Assembly: GCA_021780675.1 (NCBI GenBank)
Contig: JAJXYH010000034.1
Location: 19,889 to 83,888, forward strand
Length of the DNA: 64,000 nt
Source: a bacterium
GTDB lineage: Bacteria; Patescibacteriota; Microgenomatia; Levybacterales; UBA12049
Direction of reading: 5' to 3'
Both the position numbers and the translations under genes were made by a program. Positions 18,297 through 26,402 of this stretch are shown in pieces (the first letter of the stretch is position 1; the number at the start of each line of letters is the position of its first letter). Below the pieces are notes generated by a model. The model saw only the letters and a list, made by a program, of their open reading frames with translations, made no database searches and was not told the origin of the DNA.

Positions 18297-18304
18297 ATTT
18301 TAAG

Positions 18305-18375
18305 TCGGGGTGCCAGGAATTGAACCTGGCCCACACGCACCCCATGCGCGCATTCTACCGATAAACTACACCCCG
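18305..18375 (-). tRNA. tRNA-Pro (anticodon GGG)
   Basis: The reverse complement folds as a cloverleaf: acceptor CGGGGTG/CACCCCG, T-arm CCAGG-TTCAATT-CCTGG, anticodon stem CGCGC/GCGTG with loop ATGGGGT, discriminator A. CCA is not encoded. Confidence 0.8.
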
Positions 18376-21871: not shown

Positions 21872-22906
21872 ATGACTTTAAGGCTTAAGAATGTTTTTTT
21901 AATTGTAATAGGAGTTGTTCTTTGCTGGTTTTTATATATAGAAAGAGCAATTCTAACACCTTTTATATTAGCTGCTATTTTTGCTTATATTTTTAATCCG
22001 GTTGTTAATTTCTTTTCGAACAAACTTAAATTTCCCCGAACGCTTTCTGTTATAGGTATTTATATTTTTTTAATATCATTAATTATTTTTTCAGGGGTAA
22101 TTTTTTGGCAAAGAGCAGTTAACGAATCTTTTGAATTAAAGAATGAAGCATATAACATAACTAAAACAGCTAGACATCAAATAAATAATATGCCGAATTG
22201 GTTAAAACCGACAGTTAGTGATACTTTGGATACGATAGAAAAATCTTCTAACATTTCTTATCCTTCAATTTTTTCTTTTTTTCCACAAGTTTTTTCGAGA
22301 GTATTGGGTTTTATTATTTTCCTTTTTAGTGCTTTTTATTTCCTTAAAGAGGGTAGGGGTATGATAGACAGATTGTTAAATAATGCTCCACATAGCTATC
22401 GGATAGAGTTGGATATTTTAATTCGTAAAATAAATTCAGTACTGGTCGGGTATTTGCGTGGACAAATTTTTCTAGTGTTTTTTGTTTCATTAATACTTTT
22501 TGTCTTGCTTACAATTTTAGGAGTTAAATTTTCATTAATTTTAGCTGTTTTTTCAGGATTTGCAGAAATTGTTCCGATTATCGGTCCTATTGTTGCCGCA
22601 GCATTAGCTGCAACTGTTTCTTATCTAGCCGGTGCGTCAAATTTTGGTTTGAATCCTTTTCAGATTGTTATTGCCGTAGTCATAATTTATTTTGTGGTAA
22701 GGCAATTTCAGGATTATTTTATAAACCCTATTATTATGGGTAAAATAACAAAATTGCATCCTCTTATTATTCTTTTTGCAGTTATTGCAGGTGAGCATAG
22801 TGGCGGAATATTAGGATTAATTTTAGCAGTTCCCATTGCGGGAATTTTAAGGATAATTTTTGAATATTCTTTAGAAAAAATTAACGGTCACGAACATCAT
22901 TCTTAA
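21872..22906 (+). CDS. AI-2E family (PerM/UPF0118) membrane transporter
   Basis: 344-aa polytopic membrane protein with the typical 8-TM layout and a conserved central region. Confidence 0.55.
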   Translation: MTLRLKNVFLIVIGVVLCWFLYIERAILTPFILAAIFAYIFNPVVNFFSNKLKFPRTLSVIGIYIFLISLIIFSGVIFWQRAVNESFELKNEAYNITKTARHQINNMPNWLKPTVSDTLDTIEKSSNISYPSIFSFFPQVFSRVLGFIIFLFSAFYFLKEGRGMIDRLLNNAPHSYRIELDILIRKINSVLVGYLRGQIFLVFFVSLILFVLLTILGVKFSLILAVFSGFAEIVPIIGPIVAAALAATVSYLAGASNFGLNPFQIVIAVVIIYFVVRQFQDYFINPIIMGKITKLHPLIILFAVIAGEHSGGILGLILAVPIAGILRIIFEYSLEKINGHEHHS

Positions 22907-22909
22907 TTT

Positions 22910-23317
22910 GGGTTTTGCGGAAGATAGTAAGCCAGATTCTGTTTTTTGGCTCTCAAGTAAACTTTCAAGCTTATCTACAATCTATCTCATTTACGATTTT
23001 TAGTCGCTTAATGGTCCGAATTTACGGACTGCCCTCAAACTTTGATATACCTTTAAAGCAAAGTCTGCTTATTTTTTAAGTAAGCATATCATTCGGAAGT
23101 TGCAGCGGGTGGGATTATCCGTTTCACTCCTACTCGTCTCTGTTACTCTCATATTCCGTCAATTCGGAATATGTTTTCGATACCGTATGTAGGTTAAAGG
23201 TATCGAAACACCAGCTATTACTAGTCGGAACTTACATTCCGTCCCCGGCTTTAGTGCTGTCTGGACTTTCCTCGAATACGTTAATAGTATCCGTAGTAGA
23301 TCCACTTCCGCAAAACC
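22910..23317 (-). ncRNA. rnpB: RNase P RNA (bacterial type A-like)
   Basis: On the minus strand, P1 is GGUUUUGCGGAAG paired with CUUCCGCAAAACC. P3 hairpin is GGAUAC/GUAUUC. The P4 5' strand GAGGAAAGUCCAGAC pairs with the 3' strand ACAGAAUCUGGCUUA, with compensatory CCAG/CUGG changes relative to E. coli CCGG/CCGG. GUAACAGAGAC and GUGAAAC modules are present. About 408 nt in a 0.57-kb ORF-free, GC-enriched gap. Confidence 0.8.
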
Positions 23318-23323
23318 ACATGT

Positions 23324-23352
23324 ATTCTAGCAAATTATCACTCAATTGTCTA
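23324..23352 (-). promoter_or_regulatory. rnpB promoter
   Basis: On the minus strand: TAGACA, 17-nt spacer, TAGAAT, 6 nt, then the G start of P1. Confidence 0.45.
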
Positions 23353-23483: not shown

Positions 23484-26402
23484 TTATGCATTGCATAATA
23501 TCTTGTATTCGCAGTTTTTACATAAAACATTTTTACTGCATTTAAAATCGCTTTTTTCGATTTCCTTAATTTTTGTAAGTAGTTCATTTTCAAAGCTTTT
23601 TAAATCCTTGGCGGTAAAAGTCATTGACTTTTTTTCATTAGTTTCGATGAAGTGCAAAGTTAAAGTTATGTCTTTTGCACTTCTATTTAAGATCTCGTCT
23701 TTTACTTTTATTGCAGCAAGTGCATATATTGCCAGTTGTAGTTCATGCGCTTTTTGAGCTTTGGGATTGTCCTCACCGGTTTTATAATCAATTATATCAA
23801 TTCCCCCATCTTTTCTTTTGTCTATTCTGTCAATTTTTCCGGAAACTTTTATGTTGCCTTTTAGATTAAAAGAGAATGGAAGCTCTAAAGCCAGCGGTTT
23901 TACCGGCAGATTGGCCTTTTTGCCATAAGGAACATTGCCTGTGGGCTCGCATTCGTTTTTGTAAAAATTTTTAAGAGTTTTTATAGCACGTTCATAATTT
24001 TCTCTTTCGTGTTTTTTATTATTATAGCCTTCATTAATCCAATTTTTATCTAAAATGGTTAGCAATTCCTCTTGGGAAGGAATTTTATTTACTTGAACTA
24101 ATTTATAAAAATTATAAAGAGTATTATGCATCGAAATTCCAAAGCTTTGTACAAAAGATTTAGGCGTTGGGATGTTAAGTATAACTTTTGCTTTATAATG
24201 GAGAGGGCATATGTCAAACATTTGCAGGTTTGAATAATTAATGTAAGTAATTTTTAACGGTTTCTGTTTTTCTTTTTTCTCTTCGGTCTTTTCATAAGAT
24301 GATAATGTTTTTAATAGAGATAGTTGTTCTGTTTCTTTTTCGGTCTTTGTAACTTGAAGTTTTGGTAAGCTTTCAAAAATAAACGGGGACAGTTTCTTAA
24401 GTCTTTTACCTTCTGCGTAAGTTTTAGCAGCTGTAAAGTAAAGTAATTCCTTAGCTCTTGTCATGCCAACATAAAAAAGTCTTCTCTCTTCTTCTATATG
24501 AAAATCGGAGGTTACGGGTAAATTTTCTTTTATTAAATTTTTGGGAAGTTGTATTTTTTCCGCGCGTTCTCTTGTTGGAAAACGGTCAATGACAAGATTG
24601 ACTAAAAAAACAACCTTAAATTCCAATCCTTTACTGGAATGGACAGTTAAAATATTAACAGCATTTTCATTTCTTATATCAAGATCTGCAGCAGTTGGGC
24701 TATCACCGGTTTCAAGCATTAGGTTTATCCATTCAGACGCATCAAAAATACTGCTATTAGGATTTTCCGATTCAAAATTTTTTATTCTGTCAAAAAGTTT
24801 GGCAATGTTTTGAATAGCTTTTTCCTTTTTTAACGAGTCAACGCTATTAAAGGTTAGCAAAAGTCCGGTATCTACCAAAAATGAATAAAGAATTTCTCCG
24901 GCTGTTTCCTTTTTAGCTTTTTCAAGATGCCTTTTAGTCATTTCCCTAAAATGAGTTAGTTTATTTTTTGTTTTTTTGTTCAAGAATTTTTGATCAAGTT
25001 CAAAAAGAGCTTCAAAAAGAGAATAATTTTTGGTCTTTGCAAAATTTAATAAATAATTTAATTCAATAATGGAGATATTAAATATTTCCATAGAAAGAAC
25101 TCTAAAAAGTGATACCGAATCTGAAAGGTTAGATAAAAAATTTAGATAAGCAATTAAATCTTTGATTTCCTCCTGTTTAAAAAGATATCCCGGTCCTAGG
25201 AATTGATAAGGAATTTTATGCCGTTGCAAGGCCTGAGTTATACTCTGTGAATGATTATTGGCTCTCACCAAAATTGCTACATCTTTATAATCATAAGTTT
25301 TAGCTAAAGATTTTATTTCTTTGGCAATATCGTCCGCTTCGTCTTCGCCCCTTGCGGATCTAATTACTCTTATATCTTTTTCTTCTAAATTAGAAACACT
25401 TTTTAGTTTTTTATTAATTTTTTCACTTACTTCAAGTCTGTTAGGATTGTTGTATTGGATTAAATTATAAGAAGCATCAAGTATGGTTTGAGAAGAGCGG
25501 TAATTGTTTGTTAAGACAATTATTTTTGCCTGTTTGTAGTTTTTTCTAAACTGTAATACATTAGATATTGCAGCGCCTCTAAATCTATAAATTGATTGGT
25601 CATCATCTGCAACGACGGTAATATTTTTATTTTTTCTGGCAAGCAGCATTGCCAGTTCATTTTGTGCATAGTTGGTATCCTGGAATTCATCAACTAAAAT
25701 ATATTTAAATAAATTTTGGTAGCGTTTTAAAACATTTGGCCGTTTTCTAAAGACGAGCAGAGTATTTGAAATTAAATCCCCAAAGTCCATTAAAGATTCT
25801 TTTACTTTTATTTCTTCGTAAATTTTGTATGCAGTCGCAAGTTCTATGTATTGATTTTTTTCTTCCAAATTTTTTAATTTTTTCGCCCAAAGAAAATATT
25901 CATTTGGTGTAATATCCTCATCTTTAAGTCTTGAGAAATGTTTAAGTAAGGCGTCTAAGAATTTTGTCGGATTTCCAAGGGGTTTATAAAATTTTAATTT
26001 TAAATCGAATAAATGTCTTTTTAAAAGTAAAATAGACCCCGACTCGGAAATCAATTTGTAGTTTGGGTCAAGGCCGATTGTGTAGGCTTCATCTCTTAGA
26101 ATTTTATCGCAAAAAGAATGAAAAGTATAAATCCACATGTTGGTAAGCCCAAAAGGAAGAAGAACATCTATTCTTTCCTGCATTTCAAAAGCCGCCTTTT
26201 CCGTAAAGGTTAAAGCCAGAATATTTTGTGAGGGGATTTTGCGTTCAACTATTAAGTGTTTAACTCTTTCTGTAATTACTGTAGTTTTTCCCGTGCCCGC
26301 GCCGGCAATAATTAAAAGCGGGCCATTTTTATGCTTGATTGCAGCTTGTTGGTTTTTATCTAAATTTTTATTTCTTTTCATTTCGGTATTGTATTTTACC
26401 AT
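23484..26402 (-). CDS. UvrD/PcrA-type superfamily-1 helicase fused to a C-terminal PD-(D/E)XK (RecB/Cas4-like) nuclease with Cys cluster
   Basis: N-terminal GAGTGKTT Walker A and SF1 motifs. C-terminal IIDYKTG, QLAIY and four Cys (CPLHY...CSKNVLCKNCEYKILC), as in AddB/Cas4-type Fe-S nucleases. 972 aa. Confidence 0.8.
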   Translation of the reverse strand: MVKYNTEMKRNKNLDKNQQAAIKHKNGPLLIIAGAGTGKTTVITERVKHLIVERKIPSQNILALTFTEKAAFEMQERIDVLLPFGLTNMWIYTFHSFCDKILRDEAYTIGLDPNYKLISESGSILLLKRHLFDLKLKFYKPLGNPTKFLDALLKHFSRLKDEDITPNEYFLWAKKLKNLEEKNQYIELATAYKIYEEIKVKESLMDFGDLISNTLLVFRKRPNVLKRYQNLFKYILVDEFQDTNYAQNELAMLLARKNKNITVVADDDQSIYRFRGAAISNVLQFRKNYKQAKIIVLTNNYRSSQTILDASYNLIQYNNPNRLEVSEKINKKLKSVSNLEEKDIRVIRSARGEDEADDIAKEIKSLAKTYDYKDVAILVRANNHSQSITQALQRHKIPYQFLGPGYLFKQEEIKDLIAYLNFLSNLSDSVSLFRVLSMEIFNISIIELNYLLNFAKTKNYSLFEALFELDQKFLNKKTKNKLTHFREMTKRHLEKAKKETAGEILYSFLVDTGLLLTFNSVDSLKKEKAIQNIAKLFDRIKNFESENPNSSIFDASEWINLMLETGDSPTAADLDIRNENAVNILTVHSSKGLEFKVVFLVNLVIDRFPTRERAEKIQLPKNLIKENLPVTSDFHIEEERRLFYVGMTRAKELLYFTAAKTYAEGKRLKKLSPFIFESLPKLQVTKTEKETEQLSLLKTLSSYEKTEEKKEKQKPLKITYINYSNLQMFDICPLHYKAKVILNIPTPKSFVQSFGISMHNTLYNFYKLVQVNKIPSQEELLTILDKNWINEGYNNKKHERENYERAIKTLKNFYKNECEPTGNVPYGKKANLPVKPLALELPFSFNLKGNIKVSGKIDRIDKRKDGGIDIIDYKTGEDNPKAQKAHELQLAIYALAAIKVKDEILNRSAKDITLTLHFIETNEKKSMTFTAKDLKSFENELLTKIKEIEKSDFKCSKNVLCKNCEYKILCNA

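What the first reader, a model, noticed from the sequence alone, without database searches (positions are those of the whole stretch)
22910..23317. RNase P RNA on the minus strand in an ORF-free, GC-enriched gap; P4 covariation supports it
The 0.57-kb gap after the AI-2E transporter gene has no ORFs. Read on the minus strand it gives:
- P1: GGUUUUGCGGAAG pairing with CUUCCGCAAAACC;
- a P3 hairpin;
- the universally conserved GAGGAAAGUCC paired to ACAGAAUCUGGCUUA at the 3' end;
- internal GUAACAGAGAC and GUGAAAC modules.
Compared with E. coli, the P4 strands changed from CCGG/CCGG to CCAG/CUGG. That compensatory pair is strong evidence for a functional RNA.
Basis: partly seen in the sequence, partly recalled or inferred. 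Interest (0 to 1): 0.55.

Follow-up and report, generated by a model that had tools for sequence, protein, structure and literature searches.

The report
Divergent RNase P RNA, pseudoknot replacing P12
This is the gene for RNase P RNA, the ribozyme that trims tRNA precursors, in an uncultured Levybacteria (candidate phyla radiation) bacterium. It is a housekeeping gene, but standard RNA annotation misses it, and one normally universal hairpin (P12) is replaced by a pseudoknot that I did not find described in the papers I could search.

Summary
Window 22911-23317 (minus strand) encodes an RNase P RNA. Every motif it listed is present, and the gap is GC-enriched (0.40-0.44 against about 0.31).

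Rfam RF00010 (bacterial type A) aligns end to end with E = 2e-16. The score is only 56.2 bits against a cut-off of 100, so a default scan reports nothing. All 20 related genomes tested are missed in the same way.

The host is a Levybacteria/Patescibacteria bacterium. In 39 related genomes the RNA sits in the same gene neighbourhood and has its own extended -10 promoter. An alignment of 35 distinct RNAs supports 88 base pairs: 95.6% are paired and 59 show compensatory changes.

The catalytic half is type A (P4, P6, P15-P17). The specificity half is not:
- There is no P12 hairpin and no P13 or P14.
- Two hairpins (X and Y) sit where type B and type C RNAs carry P10.1.
- The loop of X pairs with the 5-nt remnant of P12. 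This pairing holds in 98.5% of cells across 96 distinct sequences, and I saw 18 stub variants.

Diverged and "P12-less" CPR RNase P RNAs were reported in 2021. That paper's text does not mention this pseudoknot.

Verdict: a real gene and a new variant of a known kind, of moderate interest.

The parts
23324..23352 (-). Promoter: TAGACA, 17-nt spacer, TG-TAGAAT (extended -10). It ends 6 nt upstream of the first base of P1.
   Evidence: 10 of 12 consensus matches, with TG. An equivalent TTGnnn...TGnTAnAAT lies 5-7 nt upstream of P1 in nearly all 39 homologues.
22911..23317 (-). RNase P RNA gene (rnpB), 407 nt.
   Evidence: RF00010 full-length match 22912-23312, 56.2 bits, E = 2e-16. MFE z = -7.25. 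88-pair structure 95.6% paired across 35 homologues.
23305..23317 (-). P1 5' strand, GGUUUUGCGGAAG. It pairs with 22911-22923.
   Evidence: Perfect 13 bp. 11 of 13 P1 pairs show compensatory changes.
22911..22923 (-). P1 3' strand, CUUCCGCAAAACC.
23273..23293 (-). P3 hairpin, CGGAUAC-UAUUAAC-GUAUUCG.
   Evidence: 6 of 6 modelled pairs are compensatory.
23260..23273 (-). CR-I and P4 5' strand, GAGGAAAG-U-CCAGA (bulged U).
   Evidence: Eight P4 pairs are 100% paired; one pair switches A-U to G-C in L027.
22928..22942 (-). CR-V and P4 3' strand, ACAGAAUCUGGCUUA.
23248..23252 (-). P6 5' strand, AAAGC. It forms a pseudoknot with the P17 loop GCUUU at 23055-23059.
   Evidence: 19 variants of this strand. 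The complement of a sequence's own strand is found in its P16-enclosed region in 64/92 exactly and 80/92 allowing G-U. Foreign strands match in 3.2% and 21%.
23226..23241 (-). P8 hairpin, CGGAAU-GUAA-GUUCCG.
   Evidence: 6 of 6 pairs are compensatory and 99.5% paired in 96 sequences.
23215..23224 (-). P9, CUA-GUAA-UAG (GNRA-capped).
   Evidence: 3 of 3 pairs are compensatory; variants include CGC-GAAA-GCG and CUG-GAGA-CAG.
23175..23208 (-). Hairpin X, 10 bp with a 14-nt loop, between the P10 5' strand and the P11 5' strand. This is the position of P10.1 in type B and type C RNAs.
   Evidence: 6 of 6 modelled pairs are compensatory and 98.8% paired. A mutual-information scan recovers the helix independently.
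23189..23193 (-). Pseudoknot strand in the loop of X, CCUAC.
   Evidence: Pairs with GUAGG at 23129-23133. 98.5% paired in 96 sequences and 5 of 5 pairs compensatory.
23150..23173 (-). Hairpin Y, 9 bp, with a nearly invariant loop AAUURA (window: AAUUGA).
   Evidence: 7 of 9 pairs are compensatory and 99.2% paired.
23136..23144 (-). CR-II (J11/12), AACAGAGAC.
   Evidence: Invariant in the alignments and matched to the RF00010 consensus.
23129..23133 (-). P12 remnant ('stub'), GUAGG, the second pseudoknot strand. It takes the place of the whole P12 hairpin.
   Evidence: 18 stub variants. The exact complement of a sequence's own stub is present in its hairpin X in 117/130; foreign stubs match in 7.8%.
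23121..23128 (-). CR-III (J12/13), AGUGAAAC, followed directly by the P11 3' strand. There is no P13 or P14.
23033..23099 (-). P15-P16-P17 arm. J16/15 reads AAGUUU, with no GGU.
   Evidence: P15 and P16 pairs are compensatory. P17 pairs are recovered by the mutual-information scan.
23067..23085 (-). Extra hairpin GCUUA-CUUAAAAAA-UAAGC between the P16 5' strand and P17. This is a variable expansion site.
   Evidence: Absent in most homologues and replaced by other hairpins in L013, L017, L024, L025 and L036.
23014..23029 (-). P18 hairpin, GUCCG-UAAAUU-CGGAC (the loop is not GNRA).
   Evidence: Absent in L027, L031, L033, L036 and L039.
22993..23007 (-). Hairpin Z, GCGA-CUAAAAA-UCGU, between P18 and J18/2.
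   Evidence: 4 pairs, 98.3% paired, 2 compensatory.
22948..22972 (-). Window-specific 25-nt insert at the P19 position (J2/4). Its fold is unresolved.
   Evidence: Other homologues carry unrelated hairpins at this position, and no close relative has this insert.

Best explanation
The locus is rnpB, the gene for the catalytic RNA of RNase P, in a Levybacteria (Patescibacteria/CPR) genome.

Expression. It is transcribed from its own extended -10 promoter, starting at about 23317. The transcript ends at about 22911, convergent with the AI-2E transporter gene.

Catalytic domain. This half is type A. It has P1-P5, the P4 pseudoknot with its bulged U, P15-P16-P17 with the P6 pseudoknot, and P18. It should cleave 5' leaders from pre-tRNAs at the P4 metal-ion site, presumably together with an RnpA protein encoded elsewhere in the genome.

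Specificity domain. The tRNA-elbow reader (CR-II and CR-III) is kept, but its scaffold is rebuilt. P13, P14 and the P12 hairpin are gone. Two hairpins, X and Y, are inserted between P10 and P11. The loop of X (CCUAC) pairs with the 5-nt remnant of P12 (GUAGG) that lies between CR-II and CR-III.

Inferred role of the pseudoknot. I infer that it clamps the CR-II/CR-III module against the P10-P11 stack. Type B RNAs do this job with the P12 tetraloop / P10.1 receptor contact, and type A RNAs with P13/P14.

L15. The loop lacks the GGU that pairs with tRNA 3'-CCA, so the substrate 3' end is probably not read by base pairing.

Shown here: identity, gene ends, promoter motif, all helices and both pseudoknots (by covariation). 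Inferred: catalysis, the protein partner, and the structural role of X, Y and Z.
For: - Rfam: RF00010 full-length alignment at E = 2e-16.
- Conserved regions: CR-I to CR-V are invariant in 35 and 96 homologues.
- Synteny: recA-recX-rny-hup-AI2E-[RNA]-helicase-rmuC is conserved.
- Promoter: conserved 5-7 nt upstream of P1.
- Whole structure: 88 pairs, 95.6% paired. 59 pairs have changes on both sides against 20-24 in slid controls. Covariation score is 0.43 against 0.06-0.09, and 0 of 500 shuffles reach it.
- RNAalifold without my model: 50 of 72 predicted pairs are compensatory.
- Unbiased mutual-information scan: recovers the same helices, including three pseudoknot pairs.
- X-loop/stub pseudoknot: 98.5% paired in 96 distinct sequences, all 5 pairs compensatory, slid controls 22-60% paired.
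- Free-stub test: with the stub left unspecified in a metagenome scan, 18 stub variants were found. 117 of 130 sequences carry the exact complement in hairpin X, against 7.8% for foreign stubs.
- P6 pseudoknot: 19 variants; own complement 70-87% against 3-21% for foreign strands.
- Two relatives that keep a normal P12 hairpin (L014, L024) have a GAAA tetraloop on X instead of the complementary loop.
- Type B analogue: the P12-P10.1 tetraloop-receptor contact is documented in PMC11779636 and PMC2813881.
- The tRNA-Pro gene in the window has no encoded CCA.
Against: - The score is below Rfam's curated cut-off (56.2 against 100 bits), and nothing is reported at gathering threshold.
- There are no expression or activity data. 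The organism is known only from metagenomes.
- No rnpA was found in the 64-kb window, so the protein partner is unverified.
- P4 and P5 are almost invariant in the clade, so covariation cannot test them here.
- The metagenome set was retrieved with a pattern that fixes CR-II and CR-III. It therefore samples only this architecture and says nothing about how widespread it is.
- The absence of GGU does not track CCA encoding. L100 encodes CCA on tRNA-Pro but also lacks GGU.
Confidence: 0.93

Rival explanations
1. It is an ordinary type A RNase P RNA. The low Rfam score would only reflect AT-rich composition and a few insertions, with nothing structurally new.
For: RF00010 is the best-scoring family and aligns over all 367 model positions. 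P6, P16 and P17, the type A hallmarks, are present. P13, P14 and P18 are known to be dispensable in some type A RNAs (PMC8172020).
Against: - The Rfam alignment leaves the P12, P13 and P14 blocks empty (6, 3 and 4 nt against 28, 19 and 23 model positions). It also forces a 56-nt insertion after P9.
- Two covarying hairpins occupy the P10.1 site, which by definition is empty in type A (PMC7191817).
- The P12 position holds 5 nt that covary with a distant loop.
- Relatives without the window's two insertions score no better, at 44-75 bits.
Confidence: 0.04
2. It is a decaying rnpB relic, and the cell relies on a protein-only RNase P.
For: The score is below threshold. There is no P12, P13 or P14 and no GGU in L15. 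CPR genomes are reduced. No rnpA was found in the window.
Against: - CR-I to CR-V are invariant across more than 100 sequences.
- Compensatory changes are pervasive, which requires selection on the folded RNA.
- The promoter is conserved.
- The 64-kb window is only part of the genome, so the missing rnpA means little.
Confidence: 0.02
3. The X-loop/stub complementarity is not an intramolecular pseudoknot. Both segments would be constrained separately, or would pair with a third partner such as a substrate or another RNA.
For: Only 5 bp are involved. Most sequences share CCCAC/GUGGG, and relatedness of sequences inflates shuffle tests.
Against: - 18 different stub sequences each meet their own complement, with changes at all five positions, including G-C to C-G and A-U to G-C.
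- Slid-register controls, which keep phylogeny intact, fall to 22-60% paired.
- An external partner would have to co-vary with both strands at once.
- Relatives with a normal P12 lose the complementary loop.
Confidence: 0.05

Closest known systems
Bacterial RNase P RNA type A (Rfam RF00010; E. coli M1 RNA)
   Same: Best Rfam match. It shares CR-I to CR-V, P1-P5, P7-P11, P15-P17 with the P6 pseudoknot, and P18, and has no P5.1 or P15.1.
   Different: It scores 56 bits against a cut-off of 100. It has no P12 hairpin, no P13 or P14, and no GGU in L15. Two extra hairpins sit at the P10.1 position, and there is an extra hairpin Z after P18.
Type C RNase P RNA (Chloroflexi, Thermomicrobium roseum)
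   Same: PMC7191817 describes type C as an A/B intermediate with P6, P16 and P17 plus P10.1. That is the same mixture seen here: a type A catalytic domain with a hairpin at the P10.1 site.
   Different: The phylum is different. I recognised no P15.2 here. There are two hairpins rather than one at the P10.1 site. The papers I read do not report type C as lacking the P12 hairpin. I could not compare sequences directly.
Type B RNase P RNA (Rfam RF00011; Bacillus subtilis)
   Same: It has a hairpin between P10 and P11 (P10.1) whose contact with P12 stabilises the specificity domain (tetraloop-receptor; PMC11779636, PMC2813881). P13 and P14 are absent.
   Different: Type B lacks P6, P16 and P17 and has P5.1, P15.1 and P15.2; this RNA is the reverse. 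In type B the contact is a tetraloop docking between two intact helices. Here it is five Watson-Crick pairs that take the place of P12 itself.
Diverged CPR RNase P RNAs of Lui, Nielsen and Arkin 2021 (PMC8172020)
   Same: They report the same phenomenon. CPR rnpB genes were found only by lowering the RF00010 threshold. Two Microgenomatia RNAs were drawn as missing P12, P13, P14 and P18, and 23 of 35 lacked the CCA-binding motif.
   Different: Their text treats P12 as simply lost and does not mention hairpins at the P10.1 position or a pseudoknot. The covariation here shows that the P12 position is still paired, with a distant loop. Their figures are not held, so I could not check their sequences or drawings.
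P12-less RNase P RNAs (Mycoplasma fermentans; archaeal type T of Thermoproteaceae)
   Same: They lack a P12 hairpin (cited in PMC8172020 and PMC7191817).
   Different: Type T also loses CR-II, CR-III and P11. Here CR-II and CR-III are intact, and a replacement helix forms at the P12 site.

Membership tests
RNase P RNA (Rfam clan CL00002, any type) | Conserved regions CR-I (GAGGAAAGUCC), CR-II (ACAGARA), CR-III (GUGAAA), CR-IV (AGAUnnAU) and CR-V (ACAGAAnnnGGCUUA). | tested here: met
   All are present in the window, aligned to the RF00010 consensus, and invariant or nearly so in 35 and 96 homologues.
RNase P RNA (Rfam clan CL00002, any type) | P4 long-range helix between CR-I and CR-V with a bulged U. 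| tested here: met
   AAG-U-CCAGA / UCUGGCUU. Eight pairs are 100% paired in 35 sequences, and one pair switches A-U to G-C in L027. There are two compensatory differences from the RF00010 consensus.
RNase P RNA (Rfam clan CL00002, any type) | Core helices P1, P2, P3, P5, P7-P11 and P15, supported by covariation. | tested here: met
   P5 is invariant, so it is consistent with the model but untested.
RNase P RNA (Rfam clan CL00002, any type) | Cleaves the 5' leader of pre-tRNA and works with the RnpA protein. | not testable with these tools
   No assay is possible. No rnpA was found in the 64-kb window by tblastn.
Bacterial type A (RF00010) | Score at or above Rfam's gathering threshold (100 bits). 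| tested here: not met
   56.2 bits and no hit at gathering threshold. Relatives score 44-75 bits.
Bacterial type A (RF00010) | P6, P16 and P17 present (PMC7191817). | tested here: met
   P16 has 5 of 6 pairs compensatory. P17 pairs are recovered by the mutual-information scan. The P6 pseudoknot shows 19 covarying variants.
Bacterial type A (RF00010) | Absence of P5.1, P10.1, P15.1 and P15.2 (PMC7191817). | tested here: not met
   P5.1 and P15.1 are absent in the window. However, two covarying hairpins (X, Y) occupy the P10.1 site between the P10 and P11 5' strands.
Bacterial type A (RF00010) | P12 hairpin between CR-II and CR-III. | tested here: not met
   Only 7 nt separate CR-II from CR-III. 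Five of them pair with the loop of X.
Bacterial type A (RF00010) | GGU in L15 that pairs with tRNA 3'-CCA (usual in type A, not universal). | tested here: not met
   J16/15 reads AAGUUU. Homologues read GAAAA or AAAGU.
Bacterial type B (RF00011) | P5.1, P15.1 and P15.2 present; P6, P16 and P17 absent. | tested here: not met
   The opposite pattern is seen.
Type C (Chloroflexi) | P6, P16 and P17 plus P10.1 and P15.2 (PMC7191817). | tested here: inconclusive
   P6, P16, P17 and hairpins at the P10.1 position are met. I recognised no P15.2. No type C sequence or model was available for direct comparison, and the host phylum differs.

The most novel reading that the evidence does not exclude
Levybacteria-type RNase P RNAs would form a distinct structural class of bacterial RNase P RNA. 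In this class the supposedly near-universal P12 helix is not lost. It is rebuilt as a 5-bp pseudoknot between the remnant of P12 and the loop of a hairpin at the P10.1 position. A tertiary tetraloop/helix contact, still seen in relatives such as L014 and L024, would have been converted into Watson-Crick pairing. This would reinterpret the 'P12-less' CPR RNAs reported in 2021. It would also explain why the whole clade falls below Rfam's threshold.
Probability: 0.6. Interest if true: 0.6.

Novelty: new variant of a known kind. Interest (0 to 1): 0.45.

Why it matters
- Annotation. RNase P RNA is used as a completeness check for genomes. In this clade every copy tested scores 44-75 bits against Rfam's cut-off of 100, so pipelines report the gene as absent. 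A clade-specific covariance model built from the alignment made here would fix that.
- RNA structure. The locus is a natural example of a peripheral stabilising helix (P12) being replaced by a pseudoknot with a newly acquired hairpin, while the tRNA-elbow reader (CR-II and CR-III) stays intact. It mixes a type A catalytic domain with a specificity-domain layout like that of types B and C. Intermediate forms survive in the same clade. This adds a documented case of how large ribozymes swap equivalent scaffolds.
- Prior work. It refines the earlier claim that some CPR bacteria have lost P12.
- Limits. It does not change what RNase P does, and the gene itself is ordinary.

Tried and rejected
- A default Rfam scan of the window gave only a tRNA. 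The RNase P hit needed E-value mode.
- My first strict motif regex found only 22 of 43 homologues, because many start with CAGGAAAGUCC or end with GGCUUAU. A relaxed pattern found 39.
- A naive longest-helix search for P1 picked up promoter sequence in five loci. I corrected this by requiring the 3' strand to lie next to CR-V.
- I first read P9 as a 5-bp ACUAG/CUAGU helix. I rejected this because variants such as ACGCGAAAGCGCUAGU keep only the 3-bp GNRA hairpin. The trailing CURGU is instead the P10 5' strand, which covaries with CYA.
- I looked for a mini P12 hairpin within GACGAGUAGGAG. No pairing is possible there.
- RNAalifold paired the P4 5' strand with the P11 3' region, paired UGC with GCA next to P15, and drew a 3-bp hairpin inside CR-V. 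All of these pairs are invariant or change on one side only, and they conflict with P4 or P5, so I rejected them.
- The whole-RNA MAFFT alignment is out of register in upper X, P17 and P18. I therefore tested P6 and the pseudoknot with alignment-free own-versus-foreign complement tests as well.
- A tblastn search for rnpA and rpmH in the window found nothing.
- I found no correlation between an encoded CCA and GGU in L15.
- I found no close relative carrying the window's two private insertions, so their folds remain open.
- A mutual-information scan found no partner for the invariant Y loop.
- I did not build a full-length covariance model, because the RNA exceeds the tool's size and time limits.

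Full report
**Observation**

- a perfect 13-bp P1 (GGUUUUGCGGAAG / CUUCCGCAAAACC);
- a P3 hairpin;
- GAGGAAAGUCC and ACAGAAUCUGGCUUA;
- GUAACAGAGAC and GUGAAAC.

The RNA lies in the 577-nt gap between an AI-2E transporter gene (21872-22906, +; Pfam PF01594, E = 4.6e-61) and a UvrD/PD-(D/E)XK helicase-nuclease gene (23484-26402, -). Only two small mechanical ORFs, of 54 and 48 aa, cross the gap. GC content rises to 0.40-0.44 against 0.26-0.35 in the flanks. The strand folds far better than shuffles do, at -123 kcal/mol with z = -7.25.

**Identity**

At Rfam's gathering thresholds the whole window yields only a tRNA. In E-value mode, RF00010 (bacterial RNase P class A) aligns over all 367 model positions to 22912-23312. 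The score is 56.2 bits and E = 2e-16, against a curated cut-off of 100 bits.

Compared with the RF00010 consensus, P4 changes from CCGGG/CCCGG to CCAGA/UCUGG. These are two compensatory G-C to A-U changes.

A sigma-70-type promoter (TAGACA, 17-nt spacer, TG-TAGAAT) ends 6 nt upstream of P1.

**Host and relatives**

The transporter's homologues are from 'Candidatus Levybacteria / Levyibacteriota' and 'Patescibacteria group' metagenome-assembled genomes. The gene order recA-recX-rny-hup-AI2E-[gap of about 0.4 kb]-helicase-rmuC is conserved.

In 39 loci the gap holds a homologous RNA of 318-481 nt. Each has its own TTGnnn...TGnTAnAAT promoter 5-7 nt upstream of P1, and P1 covaries from genome to genome. 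In five loci the RNA gene is inverted relative to the transporter gene.

None of 20 such loci gives an RNase P hit at gathering threshold. Sub-threshold RF00010 scores are 44-75 bits, and one RNA scores best against the archaeal model. The whole clade is an annotation blind spot.

**Structure and covariation**

I aligned 35 distinct RNAs (A2).
- RNAalifold, run without any input from me, predicted 72 pairs, of which 50 show compensatory changes.
- My 88-pair model includes the P4 pseudoknot and the new pseudoknot. It is 95.6% paired.
- 59 of its pairs change on both sides, against 20-24 in registers slid by 1-3 columns.
- Its covariation score is 0.43 against 0.06-0.09, and 0 of 500 shuffles reach it.
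- A mutual-information scan over 133 sequences recovers the same helices.

**Catalytic domain**

This half is type A. It has P1, P2, P3, P4, P5, P15, P16, P17 and P18.

The P6 pseudoknot forms between AAAGC (23252-23248) and the P17 loop GCUUU (23059-23055). Its 5' strand occurs in 19 variants, such as AUUGU/ACAAU, AAAAC/GUUUU and UAUAC/GUAUA. The complement of a sequence's own strand is found in 64 of 92 sequences exactly and in 80 of 92 allowing G-U. Foreign strands match in 3.2% and 21%.

J16/15 reads AAGUUU and lacks the GGU that pairs with tRNA CCA. The only tRNA gene in the window, tRNA-Pro, has no encoded CCA. The two traits do not track each other in relatives, however.

The window's RNA also carries three extras:
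- a private hairpin between P16 and P17 (23085-23067);
- a private 25-nt insert at the P19 position (22972-22948);
- the clade-wide hairpin Z after P18 (23007-22993).

**Specificity domain**

This is where the RNA departs from every type I could compare.

P7, P8, a GNRA-capped P9, a 3-bp P10 (URG/CYA, covarying as A-U, G-C and G-U) and P11 are present. Between the 5' strands of P10 and P11 lie two hairpins:
- X (23208-23175) has a 10-bp stem and a 14-nt loop.
- Y (23173-23150) has a 9-bp stem and a nearly invariant loop, AAUURA.

Both covary strongly. This is the position of P10.1 in type B and type C RNAs (PMC7191817).

CR-II (AACAGAGAC) and CR-III (AGUGAAAC) are separated by only 7 nt, so there is no P12 hairpin. 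CR-III runs straight into the P11 3' strand, so there is no P13 or P14.

Five of those 7 nt (GUAGG, 23133-23129) are complementary to CCUAC in the loop of X (23193-23189).

**Testing the pseudoknot**

*Within the 35 genome-derived RNAs.* The five pairs are 93.6% paired, against 23-62% in slid registers.

*With the stub left free.* I scanned metagenome contigs for AACAGAGACGA-N7-UGAAACGG, which leaves the stub unspecified. Combined with the genome set, this gave 130 distinct RNAs with 18 different stub sequences:
- 117 of 130 carry the exact Watson-Crick complement of their own stub in hairpin X.
- 128 of 130 do so when G-U pairs are allowed.
- Stubs taken from other sequences match in only 7.8%.

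Examples of loop/stub pairs are CCCAC/GUGGG, CUCAC/GUGAG, CCUAC/GUAGG, CUCGC/GCGAG, UCCAC/GUGGA, CCGAC/GUCGG, CCUGC/GCAGG, CCAGU/ACUGG and CUAGU/ACUAG.

*On a fresh alignment.* On a MAFFT alignment of 96 distinct specificity domains (A3), the helix is 98.5% paired and all five pairs show changes on both sides. Slid registers give 22-60% paired.

I regard the pseudoknot as established by comparative analysis.

**Intermediate forms**

Two relatives, L014 and L024, keep a conventional P12 hairpin and one P13/P14-like hairpin. In these two, X ends in a GAAA tetraloop instead of the complementary loop, and Y is retained.

This fits a history in which X first contacted P12 by tetraloop docking and the contact was later hard-wired as base pairing while the P12 hairpin was lost. 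That order of events is inference. The direction of change was not tested.

**How it most likely works**

By homology, the RNA is the catalytic subunit of RNase P. P4 and its surroundings bind the metal ions and the cleavage site. [quoted passage not shown]

- In type A, P13 and P14 brace the CR-II/CR-III module.
- In type B, the P12 tetraloop / P10.1 receptor contact does so (PMC11779636, PMC2813881).
- Here I propose that X lies along P10/P11 and its loop clamps the junction between CR-II and CR-III directly.

The roles of Y and Z are unknown.

**Comparison with what is known**

Lui, Nielsen and Arkin (2021, PMC8172020) already reported diverged RNase P RNAs in CPR genomes. These were detectable only below the RF00010 noise cut-off. 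Two Microgenomatia RNAs were drawn as lacking P12, P13, P14 and P18, and 23 of 35 lacked the CCA-binding motif.

Five of my homologues (L027, L031, L033, L036, L039) lack P18 and Z and are probably that form. All five carry the pseudoknot.

Neither that paper's text nor the other literature I could search mentions hairpins at the P10.1 position or a P12-replacing pseudoknot in CPR. That literature includes a 2020 survey of structural types and a 2026 phylogenetic survey of 337 bacterial RNAs. Subscription-only papers and figures were not searchable, so prior description cannot be excluded.

**Verdict**

The gene itself is an ordinary housekeeping gene.

The added value is threefold:
- a clade-wide failure of standard annotation;
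- a hybrid architecture, with a type A catalytic domain and a specificity-domain layout like types B and C;
- a well-supported new pseudoknot in place of P12.

I rate it a new variant of a known kind, with interest 0.45.

Noticed in passing
L005-L043 (20 loci tested), RNA gene next to the AI-2E gene: No Levybacteria RNase P RNA reaches Rfam's gathering score. RF00010 scores are 44-75 bits, and L031 scores best against the archaeal model RF00373 (67 bits). This is a clade-wide annotation blind spot.
   Followed up: yes
L014:3536-3987 and L024:1048-1489: These two relatives keep a normal P12 hairpin plus one P13/P14-like hairpin. Their hairpin X ends in a GAAA tetraloop instead of the stub-complementary loop. 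They may be an intermediate or ancestral form.
   Followed up: partly
window 23150-23173 (hairpin Y): The loop AAUURA is nearly invariant in more than 96 sequences, including those with a normal P12. A mutual-information scan found no covarying partner. Its function is unknown.
   Followed up: partly
window 22993-23007 (hairpin Z): A conserved small hairpin with loop CYAAAWA lies between P18 and J18/2. I know of no counterpart in type A. It is lost together with P18 in L027, L031, L033, L036 and L039.
   Followed up: partly
window 18304-18375 (-), tRNA-Pro(GGG): The gene has no encoded 3'-CCA; the discriminator A is followed by CUU. 19 of 22 tRNA-Pro genes in related loci are the same, and 3 encode CCA. 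L15 of the RNase P RNA lacks GGU in either case.
   Followed up: partly
Helicase gene of L012, L014, L016, L024, L027, L031 and L039 (for example L016:4856-4950); the equivalent gene is window 23484-26402: Sub-threshold matches (44-65 bits, cut-off 65.2) to Rfam RF03531, 'C. difficile sRNA included into helicase gene', lie inside the UvrD-type helicase ORF. This is probably conserved coding sequence rather than an RNA.
   Followed up: no
L028, L029, L031, L039, L043: The RNase P RNA gene lies in the same slot but is inverted relative to the transporter gene. In L003 and L004 a cupredoxin gene is inserted further along, between the helicase gene and rmuC.
   Followed up: no
L014, L025, L028 (alignment A2 columns 79-111): An extra hairpin sits between P5 and P6, the position of type B P5.1. 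It is flanked by a repeated GUAAAG-like motif, which suggests it arose by local duplication.
   Followed up: no
alignment A2 columns 221/284 (base of hairpin X; window about 23209 and 23174): This pair alternates between G.A (70), U-A (34), A.G (18) and C-G (8). It may be a switch between sheared and Watson-Crick geometry.
   Followed up: no
window 22900-22925: The 3' end of the RNA (22911) lies 4 nt from the stop codon of the convergent AI-2E gene (22906), with no U-run. In many relatives a U-run follows P1 directly, which makes P1 resemble an intrinsic terminator.
   Followed up: no
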